This document shows, in pieces, positions 201 through 4,783 of a DNA stretch of 4,783 bases (positions within the stretch are counted from its first letter, which is position 1; the number at the start of each line of letters is the position of its first letter). Position numbers and translations under genes: made by a program. Source of the stretch: Escherichia coli (GTDB taxonomy: Bacteria; Pseudomonadota; Gammaproteobacteria; Enterobacterales; Enterobacteriaceae). The notes under the pieces are model-generated. The model searched no databases and was not told the DNA's origin. It was given only the letters and a program-made list of their open reading frames with translations. The stretch is from the NCBI RefSeq assembly GCF_003334815.1, contig NZ_QOWO01000075.1. The stretch is one strand, 5' to 3'.

Positions 201-626
201 ATGCAGTATGCGAAACCTGTCACTCTGAACGTTGAAGAGTGCGACCGCCTTTCCTTTCTGCCTTACCTGTTTGGCAACGATTTTCTGTATGCCGAGGCGT
301 ATGTGTACGCGCTGGCGCAAAAAATGATGCCGGAATATCAGGGAGGCTTCTGGCATTTCATCCGCCTGCCGGATGGTGGCGGTTACATGATGCCGGATGG
401 CGACCGTTTTCATCTGGTCAACGGTGAAAACTGGTTTGACCGCACTGTGAGTGCTGATGCCGCAGGTATCATCCTGACTTCCCTTGTGATTAACCGCCAG
501 TTGTGGCTGTACCACGACAGCGGGGATGCGGGACTGACACACCTTTACCGGATGCGTGATGCGCAGTTGTGGAGCCACATTGAATTTCATCCCGAATGTA
601 ACGCGATTTACGCAGCACTGGACTGA
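201..626 (+). CDS. klcA: Anti-restriction protein, ArdB/KlcA family (141 aa)
   Basis: ATG at 201 preceded by GGAGG (189-193, 7-nt spacer). Translation carries family-typical blocks: [36 protein letters not shown] and C-terminal AIYAALD. The 141-aa length fits this family; the upstream in-frame start at 84 has no RBS and would give a poorly coding GC-rich extension. Confidence 0.85.
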
Positions 627-1310: not shown

Positions 1311-1448
1311 TCAGCCCGCGCGAAAACCCCTGGCAGGCTGGCGCCTGCCGGAAGGGATGCGGGCCACGCTGGCGCGTCGCCCGTTACCCTTCCCGTTTGT
1401 GATGTGTCCGGAATGTTTTTTCCTGATGTTATGTTTCTGTGGTTACTG

Positions 1449-1477
1449 TTCTTCTTCTTCTTCTTCCTCTTCTTTCC
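1449..1477. repeat. Polypyrimidine simple-repeat tract containing (TTC)6 at 1449-1466
   Basis: Direct reading: ttcttcttcttcttcttc followed by ctcttctttcc; pyrimidine-only on the + strand for 29 nt. Confidence 0.9.
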
Positions 1478-1837
1478 GTTCCTCTCCTGTTTATGCCTTT
1501 TCCGGGCGTCCCCCTGGCGGGGCGGGCTGTCGTGAACGGAGCCAGCGGAGCTGTCTCCGCCCTGGCGGGCTTCCATCCCTGACGCAAAACCCCGGGTTTG
1601 CAGCGACCGGAACGGTCGCGCCACCCTTGTCGCGCCGTGGCCTGCGCTCCTGGCATCCCGGCAAAAAGACGCCGGGATGTAAGGCGCAACGCCGTTTCGC
1701 GCACGCGCTCTCCGTCGTTGCGGCGGGTCCCTGCTCATTGCCTGCCGGGTGCCACACACCCGTATGAGTCCCTGTCGCCGGGGGCTGATACAGCCACAAC
1801 CTGCCGCACTGACTGTCCAGGGTAAATGAACAGCCCA

Positions 1838-1873
1838 CAAAATTTTTTACCCAGAACCCGGTAAAAAATTTTG
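1838..1873. other. Perfect 14-bp AT-rich inverted repeat (CAAAATTTTTTACC / GGTAAAAAATTTTG) with 8-nt spacer
   Basis: Arms 1838-1851 and 1860-1873 are exact reverse complements. Flanked by a further imperfect pairing, 1813-1821 with 1882-1890 (8 of 9), suggesting a longer imperfect hairpin centred near 1855. Confidence 0.8.
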
Positions 1874-2252
1874 CGTTCTGCCCAGGACAGGTGCGTCAGG
1901 CCGTGGCAGTGATGCCCCTTGCGGCGAAGGTTCTCAAACGGGTGAAGTTCATACCACAGGGAATACAGCAGCAGGTTCCCGCGAAACGTCAAAACCGCGG
2001 CTCCCGAAACTCAACGGGTGATGTTCTTTAAAAATCAGGATTTATTTCAGGCTCCGGCAATACGCATTTATGTGTTCTGTCAGCATCCTGCTGACAGGTA
2101 ATGAGAACGCAGGAACAGAAGGAGGAATACACCGGAAAACGTCAGATGCAGATATGAAAAAAGCAGGTCAGGGACCTGCTTAATCCACGCCGAAGAGACT
2201 GTGCAACCAGTCTTTAAGGCACTGTTACCAACCTGTCATAAGGTATCCATTT

Positions 2253-2483
2253 ATGACTGTAAGCATTGTTTCACCTTCCGCAGCGGCTGTAAAGCCCCGT
2301 CGTCATACCCGTTTCAGACGCGAAGACATCCCCGCGCCGGAAATTGACCCCGTGCTGAAAGCCTTCGGGCGACACATTGCCCGGAGTTTTCGCCGGGGGC
2401 GTGGTGTACACATCCCCGCCATGAAAAACACGGCTTTCGGGCAGGTGCTCCGCACACTCGAACTGAAACGCGCTTTTAACTGA
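2253..2483 (+). CDS. Small arginine-rich hypothetical protein, 76 aa (possibly DUF905/UPF0401-like; unverified)
   Basis: ATG 2253 with weak SD (AAGG 2240-2243, 9-nt spacer); first ORF downstream of the structured element; co-oriented. Many R/K residues (KPRRHTRFRRED, RSFRRGRG). No motif recognised with certainty. Confidence 0.55.
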   Translation: MTVSIVSPSAAAVKPRRHTRFRREDIPAPEIDPVLKAFGRHIARSFRRGRGVHIPAMKNTAFGQVLRTLELKRAFN

Positions 2484-2534: not shown

Positions 2535-3896
2535 ATGACATTATCAGCAATCACCATGACCGCCCCGGAAGCCGCCAGCCCGGTGCAGATGTACCGCGCG
2601 ACCTACTCACCGGATGATAACAAACTGCGCCTGTATGCCGCGTCACGTCTTGACCCGGAGACGTATAAAAAAGTGCATGATGCCGGTTTTCGCTGGGCAC
2701 CAAAACAGGCGCTGTTTGTCGCGCCAGCCTGGACACCGGGCCGGGAAGACGTGCTCCTCTCACTTGCCGGAGAGATTGAGGATGAAGACAGCACGCTCGC
2801 TGAACGTCAGGAAGCACGGGCGGAGCGGTTTACCGGATACAGCGGAAAGCGGGCCAGTGAATCCGCACAGGCACTTGATGAAGTGGAAAGACTGGCCGCG
2901 ATGATCCCGCCCGGTCAGCCCATTCTTGTGGGGCATCACAGCGAACGCCGCGCCCGTCGTGATGCGCAGCGTATTGAAAACGGCATGAAACGTGCCGTGA
3001 TGCTCTTTGAACGTGCGGAATACTGGGAAGAACGGGCGCGGTCGGCACTGCTTCACGCGAAGTATAAAGAACGCCCGGACGTTCGCTGGCGTCGTATCAA
3101 AAAAATCGAAGCGGATTTGCGCAAGGCTGAAAAGACCATCGCACAGTCGCAGAAATATCTGACGATGTGGCGGGCTGAATCGCTGGATCTGAATATGGCA
3201 AAACTCATCAGCAGTCATGACCATATCAGCGCCTGTTTCCCGCTGGATACGTATCCGCGCCCGGCAGAAAAAAGCCAGTATGAAGGGAGCCGGTCGTTAT
3301 GGTCGGCCCTGGATGATGACATCATCACCACGGAGCAGGCCCGCGAAATTGCGATCCGCTGTCATGAACGGCAGATTCAGCATCAGCAACGCTGGGTTAA
3401 CCACTATCAGAACCGCCTGATCTATGAGCGTGCCATGCTGGACGAAAGCGGCGGCGTGGTTACCCGGACACAGGATTTTGAGCCGGGCGGACAGGTTTTC
3501 AGCCGGGGCGAGTGGCTGACCATCATCCGCGTGAACAAAAGCAACGGGGCGGTGAGTTCAGTCACAACGCCGAATTACAGTTTTCTCGGGTACAGCGGCA
3601 CGATGAAAGTGACGCCCGATCGCATCACGGACTACAAAGCACCATCGGCAGAAGAGGCTGCCGTCGCCAGTCAGGCCGCGAAGCGTCCGCCGGTAGTCAA
3701 CTATCCGGGGGAAGGTTTCCGGGAAATGACAAAGGCACAGTGGGCCGCCCTGCCCCGGGACTGTAAGGCCGTGCGCAGTGTGGCAGAGACAGAAGACCAC
3801 GGGGCATACCGCTACCGCCGCACAATGGATAATAATTTCCGCCTGGTGAGTGTGTATATTACCGACATGAAAATCACGGAAATCCCACAGAAATAA
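2535..3896 (+). CDS. Protein of unknown function, 453 aa (possibly DUF3560-type leading-region protein; unverified)
   Basis: Long ORF with RBS AGGAG at 2523-2527 and 7-nt spacer to ATG 2535. Central highly charged, probably helical segment (ERQEARAERF ... RRARRDAQRIENGMKRAVMLFERAEYWEERARSALLHAKYKERPDVRWRRIKKIEADLRKAEKTIAQSQKYL). No catalytic motif recognised by eye. Confidence 0.9.
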   Translation: MTLSAITMTAPEAASPVQMYRATYSPDDNKLRLYAASRLDPETYKKVHDAGFRWAPKQALFVAPAWTPGREDVLLSLAGEIEDEDSTLAERQEARAERFTGYSGKRASESAQALDEVERLAAMIPPGQPILVGHHSERRARRDAQRIENGMKRAVMLFERAEYWEERARSALLHAKYKERPDVRWRRIKKIEADLRKAEKTIAQSQKYLTMWRAESLDLNMAKLISSHDHISACFPLDTYPRPAEKSQYEGSRSLWSALDDDIITTEQAREIAIRCHERQIQHQQRWVNHYQNRLIYERAMLDESGGVVTRTQDFEPGGQVFSRGEWLTIIRVNKSNGAVSSVTTPNYSFLGYSGTMKVTPDRITDYKAPSAEEAAVASQAAKRPPVVNYPGEGFREMTKAQWAALPRDCKAVRSVAETEDHGAYRYRRTMDNNFRLVSVYITDMKITEIPQK

Positions 3897-3901
3897 GGTA
3901 T

Positions 3902-3927
3902 ATCCCCCCGGGAAATCCCCGGGGGAT
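3902..3927 (+). other. Intercistronic hairpin containing two CCCGGG palindromes
   Basis: ATCCCCCCGGGAAATCCCCGGGGGAT: outer 7-bp stem 3902-3908 / 3921-3927, a C-C mismatch, inner 3-bp stem 3910-3912 / 3917-3919, loop AAAT. Lies between the stop at 3894-3896 and the RBS GGAG 3931-3934. Confidence 0.5.
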
Positions 3928-3942
3928 GACGGAGATAATGAC

Positions 3943-4506
3943 ATGCACAGTCAGTTAAGAGAACGTATCCGGCTGCTGCGCGCAAGGCTGGATAACGCCG
4001 CACCGGTTGCTGAAATCCGGGCTGAATCTCAGCTTTTTGTGACACCTGCCCCGGTCTGTGATCGCCTGGTGACGCTGGCGGAAATCAGCAATCGTGATCA
4101 CATTCTGGAACCCTCTGCCGGCACCGGGGCCATACTGCGGGCGATTCGGGATACCGCGCCGGAGGCCATGTGTGATGCGGTGGAGAGCAACAGCGGGCTG
4201 GTCCGGTATCTGCGGGAAAATTTTAACGGTGTCAGGGTACAGTGTGGCGACTTCATGGAATGGCAGCCGGTGCAGTATTACAGCCGGATTATCATGAATC
4301 CGCCGTTCAGCCACGGGCAGGATATCCGGCATATCCTGCGGGCCTTTTCCCTGCTGCGTCCGGGTGGCGTTCTGGTCGCCGTCTGTCTGAACGGGCCACG
4401 CCAGCAGGAGAAGCTGTTACCGTTTTCTGACATCCGCGAGGAGCTGCCGCGCGGCACGTTTGCTTATACCCATGTTCCGACGATGATTATTCGTCTGCGC
4501 GCCTGA
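3943..4506 (+). CDS. Orphan SAM-dependent methyltransferase, 187 aa (amino-methyltransferase fold; N6-adenine/N4-cytosine DNA MTase-like, no recognisable target-recognition domain)
   Basis: RBS GGAG 3931-3934 with 8-nt spacer. Motif I (AdoMet binding) ILEPSAGTGAIL near residue 55; motif IV NPPF near residue 119 (IIMNPPFSHGQD). Motif order I then IV and the small size indicate a minimal MTase core. No adjacent restriction endonuclease gene in the window. Confidence 0.85.
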   Translation: MHSQLRERIRLLRARLDNAAPVAEIRAESQLFVTPAPVCDRLVTLAEISNRDHILEPSAGTGAILRAIRDTAPEAMCDAVESNSGLVRYLRENFNGVRVQCGDFMEWQPVQYYSRIIMNPPFSHGQDIRHILRAFSLLRPGGVLVAVCLNGPRQQEKLLPFSDIREELPRGTFAYTHVPTMIIRLRA

Positions 4507-4654: not shown

Positions 4655-4783
4655 CATTTGTCTGTTACTGATGATGTTGTTGTTCCTGCTACTGCTACTG
4701 CTACTGTTCTTCTTTTTTCTGCTGCTCTGATTACTGTCTGTTTTGTTGTTCTCCTGCTTATGCCTTTTCCGGGCGTCCCCCTG
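4655..4783 (+). promoter_or_regulatory. Start of a second copy of the Frpo/ssi-like element (truncated by window end)
   Basis: 4751-4783 (ctcctgcttatgccttttccgggcgtccccctg) matches 1484-1516 at 32 of 33 positions. Upstream there are shared ttactgttcttctt and ctgatgtt blocks plus a different simple-repeat tract. Confidence 0.6.
4670..4750. repeat. Compound simple-repeat tract: (GAT)2(GTT)3 at 4670-4684, (CTGCTA)3 at 4686-4703, T-rich pyrimidine run
   Basis: Direct reading of the sequence; differs in unit and copy number from the tract at 1449-1477 in copy 1. Confidence 0.9.

What the first reader, a model, noticed from the sequence alone, without database searches (positions are those of the whole stretch)
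3943..4506. Minimal orphan methyltransferase (motif I plus NPPF) with no target-recognition domain and no cognate nuclease
The ILEPSAGTGAIL (AdoMet binding) and NPPF (catalytic) motifs in a protein of only 187 aa indicate a stripped-down amino-methyltransferase core. With no restriction enzyme next to it, it may protectively methylate incoming plasmid DNA, possibly with relaxed specificity or on ssDNA, or act as a decoy. The same NPPF motif occurs in rRNA m2G methyltransferases (RsmC/RsmD-like), so the substrate (DNA, RNA or protein) is unresolved.
Basis: partly seen in the sequence, partly recalled or inferred. Interest (0 to 1): 0.7.

Follow-up and report, generated by a model that had tools for sequence, protein, structure and literature searches.

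The report
Split plasmid methyltransferase with neighbouring partner
The 187-residue methyltransferase is real, but it is the common IncF plasmid gene ydcA: the detached catalytic half of a larger enzyme whose other half (ydbA) is the gene just upstream, probably made as the plasmid enters a new cell to methylate its DNA against restriction, although this has never been tested.

Summary
ORF 3943-4506 (+) encodes a 187-aa Rossmann-fold methyltransferase. Motif I, NPPF and all other catalytic motifs are conserved, and it has no target-recognition domain (TRD).

The window is the leading region of an IncF-type conjugative plasmid, present at 90-97% identity in more than 5000 plasmids. The gene is ydcA, long annotated as a "putative adenine-specific DNA methylase" but never characterised.

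Sequence searches place it nearer gamma-class N6-adenine DNA methyltransferases (M.TaqI, and domains inside giant phage virion proteins) than RsmC/RsmD. KsgA/Erm-type RNA enzymes are not excluded.

It is not a self-contained minimal enzyme. In Betaproteobacterial plasmids and many metagenomic relatives, the upstream 453-aa DUF3560 protein (ydbA) and this domain form one 580-730-aa polypeptide. In Enterobacterales the gene is split in the linker, and the two genes stay adjacent down to 50% identity.

The module lies downstream of a third copy of the Frpo/ssiD single-stranded-DNA promoter. The classic F plasmid lacks the module.

Best model (about 0.5): a two-component adenine DNA methyltransferase, expressed on plasmid entry, that protects incoming DNA. 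Substrate and specificity remain untested. It is a variant of a recognised class (leading-region orphan methyltransferases), of moderate interest.

The parts
1432..2033 (.). First copy of a ~580-nt direct repeat unit. The second copy starts at 4699 and runs off the window end. The two copies flank the ydaB-ydbA-ydcA module.
   Evidence: One search finds copies at 1432-1516 and 4699-4783, spacing 3267. One search finds three copies in the homologous plasmid L001, with spacings 3259 and 5635.
1680..2012 (-). Frpo/ssiD-type single-stranded-DNA promoter, read on the transferred (template) strand. Predicted to drive rightward transcription of the module while the DNA is still single-stranded.
   Evidence: 78% identity to F plasmid ssiD (D90178) over 340 nt, E 8e-70. 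As ssDNA it folds into one long hairpin, dG -97.9 kcal/mol, z -9.0. Promoter function of this copy is inferred by homology (PMC12672017).
2253..2483 (+). Small first ORF of the module (76 aa). It occupies the position of a ydaB-type gene, but that family assignment was not tested here. Function unknown.
   Evidence: annotated as a hypothetical protein. A small ORF also follows the Frpo copy in L018.
2535..3896 (+). ydbA, a 453-aa DUF3560 protein. Proposed partner subunit of the methyltransferase.
   Evidence: Pfam DUF3560 1.1e-36. Fused end to end with the methyltransferase domain in 43 of 116 distinct relatives and in Betaproteobacterial plasmids. Adjacent to the methyltransferase gene in L003, L004, L006, L015, L017 and L018. 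AlphaFold pLDDT 90.9.
3904..3925 (+). GC-rich hairpin in the 46-nt ydbA-ydcA spacer, just upstream of the ydcA Shine-Dalgarno sequence.
   Evidence: dG -21 kcal/mol, z -2.0 (weak). Function unknown.
3943..4506 (+). ydcA, a 187-aa gamma-type amino-methyltransferase catalytic domain. Motifs: X QLFVTP 30-35; I LEPSAGTG 55-62; II E81; III DF 103-104; IV NPPF 119-122; VIII LPRGTFxYTxVxT 168-180.
4699..4783 (.). Start of the next repeat/Frpo copy. In the full plasmid this copy precedes ssb.
   Evidence: L001 16932-17280 is 84% identical to ssiD.

Best explanation
ydcA encodes the catalytic subunit of a two-gene (ydbA + ydcA) exocyclic-amine methyltransferase, most probably an N6-adenine DNA methyltransferase.

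Ancestrally, and still in many plasmids, the DUF3560 protein and the methyltransferase domain are one polypeptide joined by an Ala/Pro/Glu-rich linker. In Enterobacterales the gene has been split within that linker. YdcA keeps only a short N-terminal helix plus the complete Rossmann core.

Proposed mechanism:
1. The pair lies in the plasmid leading region, downstream of an Frpo-type promoter that is active only on the entering single strand.
2. Both proteins are therefore made in the recipient within minutes of transfer.
3. They reassemble, with YdbA supplying substrate binding or targeting in place of a TRD.
4. The complex methylates adenines on the incoming plasmid strand or the nascent duplex before host restriction enzymes can cut.

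Shown here: the gene, the fold, the motifs, the fusion/split relationship, the conserved adjacency, the plasmid context and the homology of the promoter.

Inferred: physical interaction, DNA as the substrate, adenine N6 as the target atom, timing of expression for this particular promoter copy, and the anti-restriction effect.
For: Catalytic competence:
- All motifs X-I-II-III-IV-V-VIII are invariant across 21 homologues of 50-87% identity.
- dN/dS is about 0.26 for ydcA and 0.065 for ydbA, from a single pair.
- The AlphaFold core has pLDDT 87.6.

DNA-methyltransferase affinity:
- PADLOC: mad2 1.3e-19 and Type II methyltransferases 3e-10.
- PHROGs: 'DNA methyltransferase' and giant-protein families at 1e-25 to 6e-32.
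- The 'TP cap + helix + NPP(F/Y)' signature is the one Iyer et al. 2017 describe for EcoKI/TaqI-like adenine methyltransferases of mobile elements (PMC5512222).

Partner:
- Among the top hits, 116 are under 70% identical to YdcA. Of these, 43 are full YdbA-methyltransferase fusions and 21 more carry part of YdbA.
- pALIDE201 has one 679-aa CDS. Residues 22-458 match YdbA (46% identity, E 7e-132) and residues 518-679 match YdcA 30-187 (43% identity, E 1e-31).
- The genes stay adjacent at 45-63% identity in IncF-like, IncI-like, Serratia and Pantoea plasmids and in metagenomic contigs.

Timing and context:
- The leading region runs klcA ... ssb, psiB, psiA, oriT.
- Frpo homology and the ssDNA hairpin are shown. 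The same promoter-to-genes order occurs in L018.
- Class-1 ssDNA promoters drive zygotic induction in F and pESBL (PMC12672017).
- Leading-region orphan methyltransferases are a recognised, enriched class (PMC11541004). One of them, M.EcoGIX, protects entering DNA (PMC7736820).
- Related domains sit in virion-borne phage proteins, which Iyer et al. interpret as delivered with the DNA.
Against: - No experiment on YdcA or YdbA was found.
- Pfam N6_Mtase is not significant (E 0.71), and the best Pfam and NCBIfam hits are generic or RNA-type: MTS, RrnaAD, Erm, KsgA.
- A profile that includes the fusions hits Dim1 (1.6e-8) about as well as TaqI (4.7e-8).
- The YdbA fold gave no recognisable DNA-binding or TRD-like match.
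- A YdbA-YdcA interaction was not modelled.
- Activity of this Frpo copy has not been measured, and the classic F plasmid does without the module.
Confidence: 0.5

Rival explanations
1. A truly stand-alone minimal methyltransferase. YdcA needs no partner and methylates single-stranded plasmid DNA with little or no sequence specificity. YdbA has an unrelated function.
For: - The core fold and all catalytic motifs are complete in 187 aa.
- ssDNA substrates need no base flipping or duplex-reading TRD (inference).
- M.EcoGIX shows that promiscuous single-strand methylation exists in leading regions.
- 21 of 116 relatives are stand-alone in length.
- One stand-alone relative (L016) had no detectable YdbA upstream, although that contig is short.
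Against: - Fusion with full-length YdbA is the commonest architecture among the nearest relatives.
- The two genes stay adjacent in 7 of the 8 stand-alone contexts examined (the window, L003, L004, L006, L015, L017 and L018, but not L016), sometimes with 4-nt overlaps.
- The residues before motif X are conserved in the split forms (M1, L5, R8, I9 invariant), which suggests a retained docking element.
Confidence: 0.17
2. An RNA adenine methyltransferase of the KsgA/Erm/METTL5 kind. It would modify host rRNA or tRNA, or plasmid transcripts or primer RNAs made at Frpo, during establishment.
For: - NCBIfam best hits are Erm (7.6e-8) and KsgA (1.2e-6).
- Pfam RrnaAD scores 1e-4.
- The profile hit to Dim1 is 1.6e-8.
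Against: - Scores are 28-32 bits against curated cut-offs of 171-212 bits, and cover only the SAM-binding half.
- The C-terminal RNA-binding domain of KsgA/Erm is absent.
- DNA-methyltransferase models score far higher.
- The domain family lives in plasmid leading regions and in phage virion proteins next to DNA-handling functions.
Confidence: 0.13
3. A protein methyltransferase (HemK/PrmC- or PrmA-like) that modifies a host or plasmid protein such as a release factor, SSB or YdbA itself.
For: - Weak hits to PrmC (3.9e-5) and HemK structures.
- NPPF/NPPY is shared with glutamine-N5 methyltransferases (established knowledge of the HemK family).
Against: - The scores are very low.
- The HemK N-terminal substrate domain is absent.
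- The family context is dominated by DNA-related functions.
Confidence: 0.05
4. A catalytically irrelevant SAM-binding protein or decoy, for example one that sequesters SAM or occupies host restriction complexes.
For: None directly. Some phages counter Type I restriction by removing SAM (general knowledge).
Against: - The substrate-side residues are invariant: N119, P121, F122 and F173 (P120 is nearly invariant), together with the TP cap.
- Purifying selection acts on the gene.
- Stoichiometric sequestration of SAM is implausible (inference).
Confidence: 0.04

Closest known systems
M.EcoGIX / M.BceJIII (single-strand-specific, leading-region orphan methyltransferases; Fomenkov et al. 2020, PMC7736820)
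   Same: Both are orphan adenine-methyltransferase candidates in the early-transferred region of IncI/IncF plasmids. [quoted passage not shown] The proposed role, protecting entering DNA from restriction, is the same.
   Different: M.EcoGIX is beta-class, with DPPY near the N terminus and motif I at the C terminus (PF01555). These plasmids carry their own M.EcoGIX homologue as a separate 227-aa gene about 6 kb away (L001:9614-10297). YdcA is gamma-type (X-I-...-IV NPPF), is unrelated beyond the fold, is paired or fused with DUF3560, and is uncharacterised.
M.TaqI and EcoKI-type HsdM (gamma-class N6-adenine DNA methyltransferases)
   Different: It does not reach the Pfam N6_Mtase threshold (E 0.71). 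It lacks the TaqI C-terminal TRD, the HsdM N-terminal domain, and any HsdS or HsdR partner. The neighbouring YdbA shows no similarity to HsdS.
Methyltransferase domains of polyvalent proteins of phages and conjugative elements (Iyer et al. 2017; archetype P1 DarB)
   Same: The same domain type, at 38-39% identity, is embedded in giant virion proteins: Pseudomonas phage H66 gp60 (3787 aa, residues 1967-2114, E 1.5e-27) and Shewanella phage X14 gp1. These proteins are interpreted as first-in effectors that protect entering DNA.
   Different: P1 DarB itself matches only weakly (10-20 bits). YdcA lacks the LPD36 and SF2-helicase partners of the DarB module. Its partner is DUF3560, which the polyvalent-protein survey does not name.
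KsgA/Dim1/Erm rRNA adenine dimethylases and METTL5-TRMT112
   Different: The sequence scores are far below family cut-offs. YdcA has no RNA-binding C-terminal domain. Its genomic setting is a mobile-element entry module.

Membership tests
Gamma-class (EcoKI/TaqI-like) N6-adenine DNA methyltransferases | Seven-stranded Rossmann SAM-methyltransferase fold | tested here: met
Gamma-class (EcoKI/TaqI-like) N6-adenine DNA methyltransferases | Linear motif order X, I, II, III, IV (NPP[YF]), V-VIII, with the TP cap before the N-terminal helix | tested here: met
   QLFVTP 30-35, LEPSAGTG 55-62, E81, DF 103-104, NPPF 119-122 and LPRGTFxYTxVxT 168-180, with the key residues invariant in alignment A1. The signature is as described in PMC5512222.
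Gamma-class (EcoKI/TaqI-like) N6-adenine DNA methyltransferases | A target-recognition domain in the polypeptide, or a specificity subunit (HsdS) | tested here: not met
   No residues remain outside the core. No HsdS-like gene is present. YdbA is only a candidate substitute.
Gamma-class (EcoKI/TaqI-like) N6-adenine DNA methyltransferases | Match to the family profile (Pfam N6_Mtase PF02384) at a significant level | tested here: not met
   E 0.71, 9.6 bits, residues 32-67 only. phmmer to M.TaqI is significant at 9.5e-6.
Gamma-class (EcoKI/TaqI-like) N6-adenine DNA methyltransferases | Demonstrated m6A formation on DNA | not testable with these tools
   Needs a methylome or an enzyme assay. No publication was found.
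DUF3560-methyltransferase fusion family (uncharacterised, on mobile elements) | Methyltransferase domain homologous and colinear with the C-terminal domain of the fusions, and a DUF3560 protein homologous to their N-terminal 450 aa | tested here: met
   Here the two parts are separate adjacent genes, so this is a split member.
M.EcoGIX-type single-strand-specific methyltransferases (beta class) | Beta-class order with N-terminal DPPY, C-terminal FxGxG and Pfam PF01555 | tested here: not met
   YdcA has NPPF after motif I and no PF01555 hit. The PF01555/DPPY gene is a different ORF of the same plasmids.
KsgA/Erm rRNA adenine dimethylases (PF00398) | Full-length profile match above the curated cut-off, and a C-terminal helical RNA-binding domain | tested here: not met
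   Erm scores 32 bits against a cut-off of 212 and KsgA 28.1 against 171. The Pfam match covers model positions 9-94 of 263 only. No C-terminal domain is present.
RsmC/RsmD m2G rRNA methyltransferases | Family-specific profile match (NCBIfam RsmC/RsmD, Pfam Cons_hypoth95) | tested here: not met
DarB-type polyvalent-protein module (LPD36 - methyltransferase - SF2 helicase) | Close methyltransferase homology to DarB, with flanking LPD36 and helicase domains | tested here: not met
   DarB residues 87-194 score only 10-20 bits. No helicase or LPD36 is in the window.

The most novel reading that the evidence does not exclude
YdbA-YdcA, and the fused DUF3560-methyltransferases, would be a previously undescribed class of two-part nucleic-acid adenine methyltransferase. 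A helical/beta DUF3560 protein of no known fold family would replace the TRD. The enzyme would act on the single-stranded transferred strand, or on RNA-DNA hybrids made at Frpo, during the first minutes of conjugation. IncF/IncI plasmids would then carry a second, mechanistically distinct layer of broad anti-restriction methylation beside M.EcoGIX.
Probability: 0.3. Interest if true: 0.7.

Novelty: new variant of a known kind. Interest (0 to 1): 0.45.

Why it matters
IncF and IncI plasmids are the main carriers of antibiotic-resistance genes in Enterobacterales, and their establishment in a new host depends on leading-region functions. This gene pair is present in thousands of such plasmids (at least 3818 of the 5000 best plasmid matches cover at least 80% of the window). 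It belongs to families enriched in leading regions (PMC11541004), yet neither protein has been studied.

Recognising the two genes as halves of one enzyme changes how the experiment should be designed: express both genes, or a natural fusion. It may also explain why ydcA alone would give no methylation motif.

If the pair is a low-specificity methyltransferase acting on entering DNA, it would be a second route, independent of M.EcoGIX, ArdA and KlcA, by which plasmids evade restriction. It would also give DUF3560 a function.

Tried and rejected
- NCBIfam and PADLOC gave nothing for YdbA or the small ORFs.
- Literature searches for DUF3560, ydbA/ydcA and 'leading region + SAM-dependent methyltransferase' found no functional study.
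- The hypothesis that YdcA is a DarB-type domain was rejected. DarB matches only weakly, and LPD36 and the helicase are absent.
- The hypothesis that YdcA is the M.EcoGIX homologue was rejected. That homologue is a different, beta-class gene.
- Near-identical E. coli 'fusions' of 582 aa (P0125, P0126; singletons at 99% identity) and other chimeric clusters were not used as evidence. They look like frameshift or assembly products.
- Partial 'C-part + methyltransferase' metagenomic proteins (21 cases) may be truncated at contig ends and were treated cautiously.
- Records for F (AP001918), R64 (AP005147) and pESBL (CP003290) were not in the collections. Direct transcript evidence for this module in pESBL could therefore not be checked.
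- Rfam found nothing above threshold in the window.
- The sigma-70 and terminator scans gave nothing relevant to the module.
Full report
**1. The observation.**
ORF 3943-4506 (+) is present exactly as described. It has an ATG start, a TGA stop, 187 codons and a GGAG Shine-Dalgarno sequence 8 nt upstream. ILEPSAGTGAIL occupies residues 54-65 and NPPF residues 119-122. NPPF is the only [DN]PP[YFW] match in any of the six frames of the window.

The protein is a genuine member of a large family:
- Pfam gives MTS (1e-6), Methyltransf_25 and RrnaAD.
- PHROGs profiles match at up to 6e-32.
- A search of 1.84 billion cluster representatives returns 9797 relatives at E<1e-3 and 4734 at E<1e-10.
- Homologues of 50-87% identity from Salmonella, Citrobacter, Serratia, Pantoea and Erwinia plasmids keep the same start and the same length of about 187 aa.

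**2. Where the window comes from.**
The whole 4783-nt window matches more than 5000 plasmid records at 90-97% identity, mostly conjugative plasmids of E. coli, Klebsiella, Salmonella and Shigella. In the annotated homologue pRM10466-2 (IncFIA, MOBF) it lies in the leading region. The gene order is: beta-class 'DNA methylase', DUF1380, antirestriction KlcA (window 201-626), DUF1380 (673-1092), a 63-aa ORF, a non-coding stretch, a 76-aa ORF (2253-2483), a DUF3560 protein (2535-3896), this methyltransferase, a non-coding stretch, ssb, DUF905, a ParB-like gene, psiB, psiA, hok, and then oriT/traM.

All these genes point away from oriT on the + strand. The transferred strand is therefore the - strand, which is their template.

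In older annotations the two genes are ydbA and ydcA. In plasmid pS88, ydcA is called 'putative adenine-specific DNA methylase' (PMC3438092). No restriction nuclease or PADLOC defence protein is nearby.

**3. Anatomy of the protein.**
An alignment of 21 homologues (A1) shows invariant or nearly invariant residues at every catalytic motif of an amino-methyltransferase, in gamma order:
- QLFVTP, residues 30-35 (motif X, the 'TP cap')
- LEPSAGTG, residues 55-62 (motif I)
- E81 (motif II)
- D103-F104 (motif III)
- N119-P-P-F122 (motif IV)
- LLxPGG (motif V)
- CxxGPRQ, residues 148-154
- LPRGTFxYTxVxT, residues 168-180 (motif VIII)

The AlphaFold model (pLDDT 87.6) is a canonical seven-stranded Rossmann core spanning residues ~31-187. 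It is preceded by one helix (3-17) and a disordered stretch (18-30). The polypeptide has no room for a target-recognition domain.

A single-pair comparison with pRM10466-2 gives dN/dS of about 0.26 for ydcA and 0.065 for ydbA. This is consistent with functional proteins rather than decaying ones.

**4. Which methyltransferase family.**
- DNA enzymes: HsdM (18.6), M.BseCI (18.4), M.TaqI (17.4, with the highest identity at 30%), CamA.

Sequence evidence leans towards DNA enzymes of mobile elements:
- The best PDB sequence match is M.TaqI at 9.5e-6.
- PADLOC gives mad2 at 1.3e-19, Type II methyltransferases down to 3e-10 and 'orphan MTase' at 3e-8.
- PHROGs gives 1e-25 to 6e-32 to methyltransferase domains, some annotated as DNA methyltransferase.

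By contrast, NCBIfam Erm, KsgA and PrmC hits are 23-32 bits against cut-offs of 171-212 bits. Pfam N6_Mtase is not significant (E 0.71). A profile that includes the fused relatives hits Dim1 (1.6e-8) and M.TaqI (4.7e-8) about equally.

The combination of a TP cap, a helix and NPP(F/Y) is what Iyer et al. describe for the EcoKI/TaqI-like adenine methyltransferases of phage and plasmid polyvalent proteins (PMC5512222).

My reading is that this is an exocyclic-amine, most probably N6-adenine, methyltransferase. It is closer to DNA than to RNA enzymes, but it is not assignable to a curated family. The specific RsmC/RsmD suggestion rests only on the generic MTS domain.

**5. The main new point: it is half of a larger protein.**
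Among the best 150 representatives, 116 are less than 70% identical to YdcA. Their architectures are as follows:
- 43 are proteins of 485-1453 aa, mostly 575-730 aa. Their N-terminal ~450 residues are a full-length homologue of the upstream protein YdbA (phmmer E 1e-65 to 1e-143), and their extreme C terminus is the YdcA domain at 41-50% identity.
- 21 carry part of YdbA plus the methyltransferase domain.
- 21 are stand-alone in length.
- 31 have short N-terminal extensions that were not identified.

A tblastn search of plasmids shows the fused form annotated as one CDS in conjugative plasmids of Acidovorax, Alicycliphilus, Comamonas, Cupriavidus, Diaphorobacter, Pandoraea, Burkholderia, Paraburkholderia and Pseudomonas aeruginosa. 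In Klebsiella, Raoultella, Serratia, Enterobacter and E. coli the same match falls on two CDS.

In Alicycliphilus pALIDE201 (MOBF, MPF_F) the 679-aa CDS sits among ssb, DUF932, kleA and radC. Its parts align as follows:
- Residues 22-458 match YdbA end to end (46% identity, E 7e-132).
- Residues 459-517 are an Ala/Pro/Glu-rich linker.
- Residues 518-679 match YdcA residues 30-187 (43% identity, E 1e-31).

The split in Enterobacterales therefore falls within the linker.

Foldseek against AFDB50 finds the same fused proteins in Pandoraea, an uncultured deltaproteobacterium (A0A212J123) and Pelobacter, and further DUF3560 proteins of fusion-like length in Planctomycetes and Novosphingobium. A0A212J123 is the entry through which Samuel et al. 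labelled the DUF3560 family 'Methyltransferase domain protein' in their supplementary table.

Gene adjacency is kept wherever the protein is stand-alone and context could be read:
- L003 (50% identity) and the Serratia plasmid L006.
- An IncI-like NikA/MOBP Salmonella plasmid, L018.
- Metagenomic contigs L015 and L017, with a 4-nt gene overlap in L015.
- A Pantoea-type plasmid, L004, where YdbA itself is split into three colinear ORFs (89 + 191 + 152 aa) ahead of the methyltransferase.

Only one short phage-like contig (L016) showed no YdbA upstream.

**6. What YdbA looks like.**
Pfam recognises only DUF3560, at residues 89-206. The AlphaFold model (pLDDT 90.9) has these elements:
- a small alpha/beta domain (residues 20-83);
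- three helices of about 31-45 residues (88-212, the DUF3560 part);
- a further long helix (266-304);
- a beta-rich C-terminal region (320-442).

That YdbA supplies substrate binding or targeting is therefore an inference from the fusion and the synteny. It is made by analogy with HsdS for HsdM and TRMT112 for METTL5. It is not a demonstrated property.

**7. Expression context.**
Window 1680-2012, read on the - (transferred) strand, is 78% identical over 340 nt to the F plasmid ssiD/Frpo sequence listed by Samuel et al. (E 8e-70). As ssDNA it folds into a single long hairpin (dG -97.9 kcal/mol, z -9.0).

It is part of a ~580-nt unit present three times in pRM10466-2: before this module, before ssb and after hok. 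The window contains the first copy and the first 85 nt of the second, at a spacing of 3267 nt.

Classic F has only two copies and lacks the ydaB-ydbA-ydcA module altogether. There, klcA, DUF1380 and the 63-aa ORF are followed directly by Frpo and ssb. The module therefore behaves as a cassette bounded by Frpo repeats.

The same order (Frpo, small ORFs, DUF3560, methyltransferase, ssb) occurs in the IncI-like plasmid L018.

Class-1 ssDNA promoters (Frpo, ssi1-3) have been shown to drive strong transconjugant-specific induction in F and pESBL, and to be active only in the single-stranded form (PMC12672017). For this particular copy, that activity is inferred by homology.

**8. Relation to what is known.**
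Orphan methyltransferases are a recognised and enriched class in plasmid leading regions (PMC11541004). One of them, M.EcoGIX, has been characterised. It is a beta-class DPPY enzyme that methylates single strands at SAY and helps establishment against restriction (PMC7736820).

That enzyme's homologue is a different gene of these same plasmids. It is 227 aa, with DPPY at residue 27 and FAGSGST near the C terminus (L001:9614-10297). These plasmids therefore carry two unrelated leading-region methyltransferases.

Related YdcA-type domains (38-39% identity) are embedded in giant virion proteins:
- Pseudomonas phage H66 gp60: 3787 aa, annotated as verified by mass spectrometry (note truncated), domain at residues 1967-2114, E 1.5e-27.
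- Shewanella phage X14 gp1: about 2740 aa, next to the tailspike gene.

These belong to the 'polyvalent protein' world of first-in effectors. The archetype P1 DarB matches only weakly (10-20 bits), and its LPD36 and helicase partners are absent here.

A methylome survey of E. coli ST131 counted only the M.EcoGIX homologue on its IncF plasmid (PMC4659465). I did not check whether that plasmid carries ydcA.

**9. Verdict.**
The gene is common and long annotated but uncharacterised.

The most useful correction is that it should not be viewed, or tested, as a self-sufficient minimal enzyme. It is the catalytic module of a DUF3560-methyltransferase that has been split into two adjacent genes. It lies in an Frpo-headed leading-region cassette.

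The best-supported mechanism is early, protective adenine methylation of the incoming plasmid DNA by a YdbA-YdcA complex (confidence about 0.5). The rivals are partner-independent ssDNA methylation (0.17), RNA methylation (0.13), protein methylation (0.05) and a non-catalytic role (0.04).

It is a new architectural variant within a known kind. Interest is moderate (0.45). It would rise to about 0.7 if the pair proves to be a new type of two-part methyltransferase directed at single-stranded DNA.

Noticed in passing
window 1432-2033 and 4699-4783; L001 13452-14033, 16711-17292, 22346-22925; L002 (F plasmid): The ydaB-ydbA-ydcA module (about 3.26 kb) is bounded by direct copies of a ~580-nt Frpo-containing repeat. 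The classic F plasmid has only two copies and lacks the module, which suggests gain or loss by recombination between ssDNA-promoter repeats.
   Followed up: partly
window 2158-2258 (- strand): An Rfam match to AS-pc01 (RF02875, 'antisense to pHK01_035') scores 68.7 bits, just under the gathering score of 79. It overlaps the start of the 76-aa ORF and ends at a terminator-like hairpin (2181-2161). It may be an antisense regulator of the module's first gene.
   Followed up: no
window 1449-1480 and about 4680-4730: (TTC)n / CT-rich tracts at the upstream edge of each repeat copy generate spurious poly-Leu/Phe/Ser ORFs in several frames. They are purine-rich on the transferred strand. Their function is unknown.
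   Followed up: no
window 3904-3925: A GC-rich hairpin (dG -21 kcal/mol, z -2.0) lies in the 46-nt ydbA-ydcA spacer, immediately before the ydcA ribosome-binding site.
   Followed up: partly
L001:9614-10297: The same leading region carries a second, unrelated methyltransferase. It is 227 aa and beta class, with DPPY at residue 27 (M.EcoGIX type). These plasmids therefore encode two different early methyltransferases.
   Followed up: partly
L004:4560-6594: In a Pantoea-type plasmid the YdbA homologue is itself split into three colinear ORFs (89, 191 and 152 aa), followed by the 197-aa methyltransferase. This marks domain boundaries at about residues 70 and 260 of YdbA.
   Followed up: partly
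L011 (Pseudomonas phage H66 gp60, residues 1967-2114); L010 (Shewanella phage X14 gp1): YdcA-type methyltransferase domains are embedded in virion proteins of 2700-3800 aa, without any DUF3560 part.
   Followed up: partly
window 2535-4506 (literature, PMC6965323): Chromosomal CRISPR spacers of Klebsiella pneumoniae are reported to match the DUF3560 gene (three spacers), the SAM-methyltransferase gene and the ORF just upstream of the SAM-methyltransferase gene, on hundreds of plasmids.
   Followed up: no
window 201-626, 673-1092, 1092-1283: The KlcA/ArdB-type antirestriction gene, a DUF1380 gene and a 63-aa ORF form the preceding operon. The first 200 nt of the window may contain the 'class 2' ssDNA promoter described upstream of klcA in PMC12672017.
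   Followed up: no
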